DNA from: a virus
Lineage: Duplodnaviria; Heunggongvirae; Uroviricota; Caudoviricetes
Direction: 5' to 3' (one strand)
Virus record (IMG/VR): IMGVR_UViG_2711768004_000003
Length of the DNA: 9,858 bases
The position numbers and the translations under genes are program-made. Shown piece after piece: positions 96-1,343 of this stretch (the stretch's first letter is position 1; each line of letters begins with the position of its first letter). Under the pieces are notes generated by a model that worked only from the letters and a program-made list of their open reading frames with translations, was not told the origin of the DNA and made no database searches.

Positions 96-1343
96 TTAAC
101 TGATCGGCATTACACCACCGGGACGCGGATTCATATCTTCCAGGTCGCGGCAGTCATTGGAAGAGTAAATTCCCCAGTTGATCCCGGTGGCGTAGGCTTC
201 AAAACGGGACTTCATATCCCCGCGCAGTAACGCCCCGGCGTTAAATTTGGCGTAATAAACGCCCTGCTTACTTTTTCGTACCAGTCCGGTGTTGATCCGC
301 TGTTCGATGCGGGTCAGATACGGCACCAGTGAATAGTTGATAAATCCCAGCCCCAGCTCTTCGATATTGTTGAAGGTGGCGCGATCGGTGTTCTGCACCA
401 TGTGCAACGGCACCCGGAACAGACGACAGATTTCTTCCAGCTGAAACTTGCGGGTTTCCAGGAACTGACTGTCCTCGGCGTTCAGCGCCATCGACTTCCA
501 GTCCAGCCCCATTTCCAGAATCATCGGGCGGTGAGCATTGCCAAGCCCCGTGTGACACTCCTCAAAATCTTTCTTCAGACGCTCGTAAGCATCCGGCGTG
601 AGCTTTTGTTCCGTACGCAACACACCGGATGTCACCGCACCATTACTAAACAACCTGGCACCGTGCTCCTCGGTTGCCGCTGCCAGTGAAATGGCCTCAC
701 GCGCATACGCAATGGGATTCAGCCCGACAAGTCCATCCAGCGTCAGGGTGCGCACATGCCAGATTTCATTCTGGGTCAACACATCCACGGAACCATCCGG
801 AAACGTCACCTGATAAACCGGCTGCCACTGGCTGTTCAGCTTCGGTTCCACACAGCCCGGATCTATCGGAAGAAGCTCCACCACTTCTCCCAGTGCCTTT
901 ACCTTGTAGGCGTAAAAATTCCCCCGTAGACACAGGCAGACAATAACCAGCTCCCAGAATTCCTGCGGTGTCATGTAGCCATTAGGTTTTGCCGAAACCA
1001 ACTTATGCAGTCGTTCATCCACCGCCCGTGTTTTCAGGGTACCGCTGATTTTGTAGAGACTGCAGGGCAGCATACCAACAGACTCTGCCAGCACCCTGAC
1101 GCAAGAATAGACCGCCGTCAGGCGCATGGCCCGCTGGCTACTGATCCGCTTTCCGGTATAGGTGTCGTATGACAGCCCGATAGCATCAGCAGTTCTGCTG
1201 GCGTGGTCACCGGCACATCGCTTTTTCGTTGAAATAATCCCGAAAAGAACACTATTTACCTCCGCCGACAGACTGCCGTGTACGGTCGAGATATCGCGCC
1301 ACCAGCCACGACCAGAACAGGCACAGCGCCCCGGCAACAACAA
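96..1343 (-). CDS. Phage portal protein, HK97 family; true start unresolved, possibly frameshifted
   Basis: The 415-aa ORF carries portal-like motifs ([62 protein letters not shown]) and sits directly after the terminase large subunit. The ORF-track start at 1343 is TTG and overlaps the upstream small ORF. The only start with a good SD is a GTG at 1252-1250, which is in a different frame (see findings). Confidence 0.8.

What the first reader, a model, noticed from the sequence alone, without database searches (positions are those of the whole stretch)
1118..1263. Portal gene: the only SD-supported start is out of frame with the conserved portal body
In the portal frame there is no ATG or GTG between the TTG at 1343 and residue 73, and the TTG start would overlap the small membrane ORF by about 90 nt, giving a Cys/Trp/Arg-rich N-terminus that looks like out-of-frame translation. 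A GTG at 1252-1250 has an ideal SD (GGAGGT, 5-nt spacer) and overlaps the small ORF stop (TAGTG), but it is in another frame and stops after 44 codons at 1120-1118. Its first residues ([10 protein letters not shown]) resemble typical portal N-termini. A single-base change in a homopolymer within the first dozen codons (A5 at minus 1226-1222, or T4 at 1246-1243) would fuse this start to the portal frame, giving [17 protein letters not shown]... and a protein of about 385 aa. So this is either a homopolymer sequencing error, a genuine inactivating frameshift in a defective prophage, or an unconventional start.
Basis: partly seen in the sequence, partly recalled or inferred. Interest (0 to 1): 0.5.

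Follow-up and report, generated by a model that had tools for sequence, protein, structure and literature searches.

The report
Frameshifted, IS4-truncated prophage portal pseudogene
The portal gene of a decaying prophage in Shigella sonnei has lost one base 21 codons after its normal start and has lost its end to an IS4 insertion, so it is an ordinary dead gene and not a sequencing error or an unusual start.

Summary
The only start with a Shine-Dalgarno site (GTG 1252-1250, GGAGGT 5 nt upstream, overlapping the ymfR stop as TAGTG) is out of frame with the portal body and stops after 44 codons.

That GTG is the annotated portal start in intact relatives: phiP27, two E. coli prophages and K-12 e14 beeE. 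ST64B is annotated one codon upstream.

The A5 and T4 runs have the same length in all intact homologues. The lesion is the loss of one G from a GG pair at window 1190 (CTGGCT to CTGCT, codons 21/22).

The same deletion is present, base for base, in 10 independent assemblies, including the finished S. sonnei Ss046 chromosome (CP000038.1). It is therefore real and not a read error.

A second lesion was missed. Window 1-112 is an IS4 end that replaces the last 33 portal codons, and the protease, capsid and tail genes that follow the portal in intact relatives are absent downstream.

With the G restored, the protein is 97% identical to the phiP27 portal (dN/dS about 0.04) and scores as an HK97-family portal. 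The inactivation is therefore recent.

Verdict: an ordinary pseudogene in a defective prophage. Interest is low.

The parts
1252..1434 (-). ymfR-like small membrane ORF (60 aa). Its stop TAG 1254-1252 overlaps the portal start.
   Evidence: ORF list. The equivalent gene is annotated ymfR or membrane protein directly upstream of the portal in phiP27, E. coli A36, ST64B and K-12 e14.
1258..1263 (-). Shine-Dalgarno GGAGGT, 5 nt upstream of the GTG
   Evidence: Sequence. Invariant in all aligned homologues.
1250..1252 (-). Native portal start codon GTG
   Evidence: Aligns with the annotated portal start of phiP27 L38, E. coli A36, E. coli C311 and K-12 beeE.
1190..1252 (-). First 21 native portal codons ([21 protein letters not shown]) in the GTG frame
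   Evidence: Colinear with the intact portals of phiP27, A36, ST64B and L017.
1189..1191 (-). Frameshift site. One G of an ancestral GG is missing: CTG GCT became CTG CT. The surviving G is at 1190.
   Evidence: Alignments A1 and A2 show a 1-nt gap only in the window and in CP000038. Viral contig L017 carries the same allele with the G present.
1118..1189 (-). Out-of-frame tail of the 44-codon product (23 aberrant codons) and its TGA stop at 1120-1118
114..1190 (-). Portal body, native residues 22-380, displaced by one base relative to the GTG frame
   Evidence: With the G restored: 370 of 380 aa identical to phiP27. TIGR01537 portal_HK97 263.6 bits, PF04860 359.2 bits.
1125..1127 (-). First ATG in the portal frame (residue 73 of the TTG ORF). 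Most gene callers use it as the start of a 343-aa product. It lies 5 nt upstream of the TGA of the 44-codon ORF.
1..112 (-). Terminal part of IS4 (TAATGCCGATCAGTTAAGG...), with the InsG start ATG at 28-26. It supplies the last 5 codons (VMPIS) and the TAA stop (98-96) of the portal ORF.
   Evidence: 100% match to IS4 in a lambda record. The junction was read directly. IS4 is 1426 bp in L007, with no portal continuation beyond it. Nterm_IS4/DDE_Tnp_1 gene calls.

Best explanation
This is the portal gene of a phiP27/ST64B/SfIV/e14-type (HK97-like head module) prophage remnant in Shigella sonnei. Two independent lesions have inactivated it.

1. One G of a GG dinucleotide at codons 21/22 (window 1190) has been lost. 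Ribosomes starting at the native GTG 1252 make 21 native residues and 23 aberrant ones, then stop at TGA 1120-1118.
2. An IS4 element abuts codon 380 (window 112/113). It replaces the last 33 codons, and the head and tail genes that follow the portal in intact relatives are absent downstream.

The long TTG-1343 reading frame is not a real N-terminus. It exists only because the portal frame happens to stay open backwards through ymfR.

Shown: the position of the deletion, its presence in independent assemblies, the IS4 junction, and the family assignment. Inferred: that no functional portal is made, and that the prophage cannot form particles.
For: - **Native start:** the GTG overlapping the ymfR stop is the annotated portal start in phiP27, E. 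coli A36, E. coli C311 and K-12 e14.
- **Single-base gap:** the DNA alignments show one 1-nt gap, only in the window and CP000038, at CTGGCG/CTGGCT. The A5 and T4 runs are invariant.
- **Independent assemblies:** a 91-nt stretch spanning the shift (window 1170-1260) is exact in 10 of 10 assemblies that carry the identical terminase. Six complete chromosomes, including CP000038.1 (S. sonnei Ss046; identity from PMC5447701), match all of window 1-1460.
- **E. coli genomes:** 1345 E. coli records cover at least 80% of window 1120-1300, all at less than 99% identity. The 25 listed cover it fully at about 94% and span 182 nt against the 181-nt query.
- **Intact allele exists:** viral contig L017 has the same local allele (GAACTGGCTGAT) with the G present and in frame.
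- **Repaired protein:** restoring the G gives 380 native residues with 10 differences from phiP27 and dN/dS 0.04. It matches TIGR01537 and PF04860 far above their cut-offs.
- **IS4:** the IS4 end occupies window 1-112. In L007 the 1426-bp IS4 is followed by raiA-pheL-pheA, not by portal or protease genes.
- **Context:** S. sonnei is known for IS4 expansion and for pseudogenes that carry both an IS and an indel lesion (PMC7373316).
Against: - No expression data were available, so a low level of portal-like protein made by ribosome slippage or reinitiation cannot be excluded.
- I could not search whole S. sonnei genomes for a relocated copy of the missing head and tail genes.
- Only 10 of the many assemblies carrying this terminase (listed in 4305 index blocks) were inspected for the deletion.
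Confidence: 0.93

Rival explanations
1. Sequencing or assembly error: a miscounted homopolymer in a draft genome creates an apparent frameshift in an intact gene.
For: The window comes from a draft assembly with a 351-N gap at 5325-5675. A5 and T4 runs lie near the start.
Against: - The A5 and T4 runs have the same length in all intact homologues.
- The missing base is in a GG pair, not in a long homopolymer.
- The identical sequence is found in 10 independent assemblies, including seven complete chromosomes, one of which is Ss046.
Confidence: 0.01
2. Unconventional start: the portal is translated from TTG 1343 or 1340, overlapping ymfR by about 90 nt, as the called gene (5840-7084, 414 aa) on CP000038.1 implies.
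For: The frame is open from 1343. The gene table for the Ss046 record lists a 414-aa product from TTG 1340.
Against: - There is no Shine-Dalgarno site upstream of the TTGs.
- The 51 N-terminal residues have no counterpart in any intact portal; all of those begin [12 protein letters not shown].
- The native residues 1-21 would be missing.
- The C-terminus is still cut by IS4.
Confidence: 0.01
3. Recoding or reinitiation rescues part of the gene. Either a -1 slip, for example on CGA AAA AGC, or termination-reinitiation at ATG 1127 (5 nt before the TGA of the 44-codon ORF), yields a portal-like protein that the host has retained.
For: - A -1 shift is the direction needed to reach the portal frame.
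- ATG 1127 lies next to the upstream stop codon.
- Most gene callers pick ATG 1127, giving 343 aa.
Against: - There is no X XXY YYZ heptamer in the GTG frame.
- The A5 run is also present in intact genes that need no shift.
- There is no Shine-Dalgarno site before ATG 1127.
- Any product would lack 33 C-terminal residues and would have no capsid partners at this locus.
Confidence: 0.04

Closest known systems
Portal protein L38 (NP_543090.1) of Stx2e phage phiP27, and the near-identical portals of E. coli prophages such as strain A36
   Same: - Same gene order: large terminase, ymfR-like ORF, portal.
- Same GGAGGT-N5-GTG start overlapping the upstream stop.
- 93.9% DNA identity.
- 370 of 380 aa identical once the missing G is restored.
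   Different: phiP27 is intact: 413 aa, followed by the prohead protease and major capsid genes. The window copy lacks one G at codon 21/22, its last 33 codons and everything downstream.
Portals of Salmonella phage ST64B (Sb4) and of Shigella phages SfIV, SfII and SfI
   Same: Same family and same synteny, at about 89% DNA identity. ST64B shares the ADAIGLS sequence at the lesion site.
   Different: These are functional phage genes with no frameshift and no IS4. The ST64B portal is annotated one codon upstream of the GTG.
beeE of the E. coli K-12 cryptic prophage e14
   Same: It is a decayed copy of the same portal, in the same ymfR-portal arrangement, with the identical TAGTG overlap.
   Different: beeE keeps the N-terminal frame and is cut after 157 codons by a different rearrangement. 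The decay there is independent of the S. sonnei lesions.
IS-driven pseudogene formation in Shigella (PMC7373316)
   Same: IS4 is one of the five IS families that have expanded in Shigella. About 12% of S. sonnei pseudogenes carry both an IS and another inactivating mutation, as this one does.
   Different: That study concerns chromosomal genes genome-wide. I did not check whether it mentions this portal.

Membership tests
HK97-family phage portal (TIGR01537 / PF04860) | Profile match above the curated cut-off | tested here: met
PF04860 scores 359.2 bits (cut-off 39.1).
HK97-family phage portal (TIGR01537 / PF04860) | One uninterrupted ORF from the native start to the native stop (a functional gene) | tested here: not met
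   There is a 1-nt deletion at 1190 and an IS4 junction at 112/113. The native ORF stops after 44 codons, and 33 C-terminal codons are missing.
HK97-family phage portal (TIGR01537 / PF04860) | Head-module synteny: large terminase, portal, prohead protease, major capsid | tested here: not met
   The upstream half is present: TerL 1446..3179 and ymfR. Downstream is IS4, followed by raiA-pheL-pheA or another IS. Intact relatives have protease and capsid genes there.
Programmed -1 ribosomal frameshift site | Slippery X XXY YYZ heptamer in the upstream frame | tested here: not met
   None is found in the 44-codon frame.
Programmed -1 ribosomal frameshift site | The two-frame arrangement is conserved in homologues | tested here: not met
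   All intact homologues aligned (phiP27, A36, C311, ST64B, e14, L017) are in a single frame across this site.
Pseudogene (genuine mutation, not an artefact) | The lesion is reproducible in independent assemblies, and intact orthologues exist | tested here: met
   10 of 10 assemblies carry the exact sequence, including CP000038.1. Intact orthologues are listed.
IS4 | Terminal sequence, element length and InsG transposase | tested here: met
   Window 1-117 matches the IS4 copy in a lambda record at 100%; bases 113-117 (TGGTG) also match the portal homologues, so the IS4 end itself is 1-112. The element is 1426 bp with imperfect terminal inverted repeats in L007. Nterm_IS4 and DDE_Tnp_1 are found on the adjacent gene.

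The most novel reading that the evidence does not exclude
The remnant is not inert. A 343-aa portal fragment, reinitiated at ATG 1127 just before the stop of the 44-codon leader ORF, is expressed. It has been kept across the sampled S. sonnei genomes because it interferes with head assembly of superinfecting HK97-like phages, acting as a decoy portal.
Probability: 0.03. Interest if true: 0.4.

Novelty: already known. Interest (0 to 1): 0.07.

Why it matters
It matters mainly for annotation. The 414-aa portal product listed for the Ss046 record, and the 343-aa products called in other S. sonnei assemblies, are gene-calling artefacts laid over a pseudogene. The locus should be described as a frameshifted and IS4-truncated portal in a prophage remnant that cannot package DNA. 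The case also shows that the position of a frameshift should be found by aligning to intact homologues, not guessed from nearby homopolymers. It opens no biological question.

Tried and rejected
- **Exact-match scan of species-representative genomes for the frameshifted 34-mer:** no hits. The scan is probably uninformative; I suspect, but did not check, that the collection holds no S. sonnei genome because Shigella is folded into E. coli there.
- **Search for a closer intact E. coli allele with short queries around the lesion:** nothing above about 94.5% identity, and no listed record shares the deletion.
- **Homopolymer hypothesis:** rejected, because A5 and T4 are invariant in intact genes.
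- **Programmed frameshift:** rejected for lack of a slippery heptamer and because homologues are in a single frame.
- **Family searches of the 60-aa ymfR ORF and the 44-aa product:** no matches in Pfam or NCBIfam.
- **Not used:** structure prediction and the large protein searches. The DNA comparisons had already settled the question.

Full report
**1. What is there**

All genes in the window run on the minus strand and form the late region of a lambdoid prophage (Pfam families):

| Gene | Window coordinates |
|---|---|
| DnaB-like helicase | 8284..9816 |
| RusA | 7659..8030 |
| Q-like antiterminator | 7283..7690 |
| ORF6N protein | 6239..7000 |
| Holin (partly hidden by an N run) | not resolved |
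| Lysozyme | 4646..5143 |
| Rz/Rz1 | 4185..4661 and 4247..4429 |
| HNH | 3792..4142 |
| Small terminase | 3176..3679 |
| Large terminase | 1446..3179 |
| ymfR-like 60-aa membrane ORF | 1252..1434 |
| Portal | from 1252 downwards |

The RusA and Q-like labels are my reading of the translations; those two were not run against a family library.

- GGAGGT lies at 1263-1258, followed by a 5-nt spacer and GTG 1252-1250.
- The GTG shares its G with the ymfR stop codon (TAGTG).
- That frame stops after 44 codons at TGA 1120-1118.
- The portal body lies in another frame, which is open back to TTG 1343. That frame has no ATG or GTG before ATG 1127 (residue 73).

**2. Which start is real**

The window matches phiP27 at 93.9% DNA identity, and ST64B, SfIV, SfII, SfI and more than a thousand E. 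coli prophages at 87-94%. In phiP27, E. coli A36, E. coli C311 and the K-12 e14 element (ymfR-beeE), the portal CDS is annotated from the GTG that overlaps the ymfR stop. In ST64B it is annotated one codon upstream. These proteins begin [21 protein letters not shown][DE][12 protein letters not shown]. The GTG at 1252 is therefore the native start. The TTG-1343 extension is an accident of an open frame.

**3. Where the frameshift is**

DNA alignments show one 1-nt gap. It is present only in the window and in CP000038, inside CTGGCG/CTGGCT, which reads CTGCT in the window. The surviving G is at 1190. Codons 1-21 are native in the GTG frame (1252-1190), and residues 22-380 are native in the other frame (1190-114).

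Restoring the G gives [34 protein letters not shown]....

The two substitutions flanking the gap (GAG to GAA, GCG to GCT) are synonymous. Both occur, with the G present and in frame, in a viral contig, L017. The S. sonnei allele therefore differs from a live allele only by the missing G.

**4. A real mutation, not an artefact**

The exact terminase protein is listed in 4305 blocks of the public assembly index. I inspected ten places. All ten carry a 91-nt stretch across the shift (window 1170-1260) exactly, and six complete chromosomes match all of window 1-1460. One of these is CP000038.1, the finished S. sonnei Ss046 genome (strain identity from PMC5447701). The window is 99.98-100% identical to Ss046 over 6.5 kb.

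Among complete E. coli genomes, 1345 records cover at least 80% of window 1120-1300, and none reaches 99% identity. The 25 listed cover it fully at about 94% and each spans 182 nt against the 181-nt query.

**5. A second lesion**

Portal homology ends at window 113. Window 1-112 is an IS4 terminus (TAATGCCGATCAGTTAAGG...), and the InsG start is at 28-26. The ORF's last five codons (VMPIS) and its TAA stop are IS4 sequence, and 33 native C-terminal residues are gone.

In L007 and L008 the 1426-bp IS4 has no target duplication and is followed by raiA-pheL-pheA. In L005, L006 and L010 the IS4 is itself split after 1123 nt by another IS. No protease, capsid or tail genes follow, unlike in phiP27, A36 and ST64B.

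**6. Family and age**

The repaired protein matches TIGR01537 portal_HK97 (263.6 bits) and PF04860 (359.2 bits). Against phiP27 it has 84 nucleotide differences but only 10 amino-acid differences (dN/dS 0.04), and against ST64B dN/dS is 0.10. The gene was under purifying selection for almost all of its divergence, so the inactivation is recent.

**7. Mechanism**

*Shown:* the native initiation signals are intact, the reading frame is broken at codon 21/22, and the 3' end is replaced by IS4.

*Inferred:* translation from GTG 1252 yields a 44-residue peptide and no functional portal, and the prophage cannot assemble heads.

Rescue by recoding is unlikely. A -1 shift is needed, but there is no X XXY YYZ heptamer, and the arrangement is not conserved in homologues. 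Reinitiation at ATG 1127, 5 nt before the TGA, is geometrically possible. It has no Shine-Dalgarno site and would give a protein truncated at both ends.

**8. Comparison with what is known**

This is textbook prophage decay in a genome known for IS4 expansion. About 12% of S. sonnei pseudogenes combine an IS with another inactivating mutation (PMC7373316). K-12 e14 beeE is an independently decayed copy of the same portal.

**Verdict**

Novelty: already known. Interest: low.

Noticed in passing
window 1-112 (and L007 7068-8493): The window begins inside IS4, with the InsG start ATG at 28-26 on the minus strand. In L007 and L008 the 1426-bp IS4 has no target-site duplication and is followed by raiA-pheL-pheA. 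This suggests an IS4-associated deletion or rearrangement removed the rest of the prophage.
   Followed up: partly
L005, L006 and L010, about 1123 nt into IS4: In several S. sonnei chromosomes the IS4 next to the portal is itself interrupted by another IS (HTH_Tnp_1/rve genes; its end sequence GGATTTGCCCCTATATTTCC looks like IS2 from memory). L007 and L008 have the intact IS4. This is strain-to-strain structural variation at the locus.
   Followed up: partly
window 5325-5675: A run of 351 N stands in for 651 nt that are present in complete S. sonnei genomes (L004 1205-1855). It is an assembly gap or a mask. It hides the start of the holin gene and the intergenic region upstream.
   Followed up: yes
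L010 5840-7084 (window 1340-96); L005-L009 and L013 (window 1127-96); L004: Gene calls for this pseudogene disagree. The Ss046 record lists a 414-aa product from TTG 1340. Six assemblies aa from ATG 1127, two short contigs that end inside IS4 aa, and L004 calls nothing there.
   Followed up: yes
L017 3921-4568 (IMGVR_UViG_2671180460_000003): This viral contig carries an in-frame portal with the same local allele as S. sonnei (GAACTGGCTGAT). It is about 95% identical over 859 nt, but its terminase region shows no BLAST match to the window. The head module therefore looks mosaic.
   Followed up: partly
L016 4550-5205 (E. coli K-12 e14 ymfR-beeE): K-12 e14 keeps the same ymfR-portal TAGTG junction. 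beeE is an independent truncation of the same portal after 157 codons.
   Followed up: partly
window 4598: This is the only base difference between the window and Ss046 (and L004) across 5324 nt: C in the window, T in the other two. It lies in the Rz-like gene. L009 also lacks one base somewhere upstream of the portal start, and ymfR is not called there.
   Followed up: no
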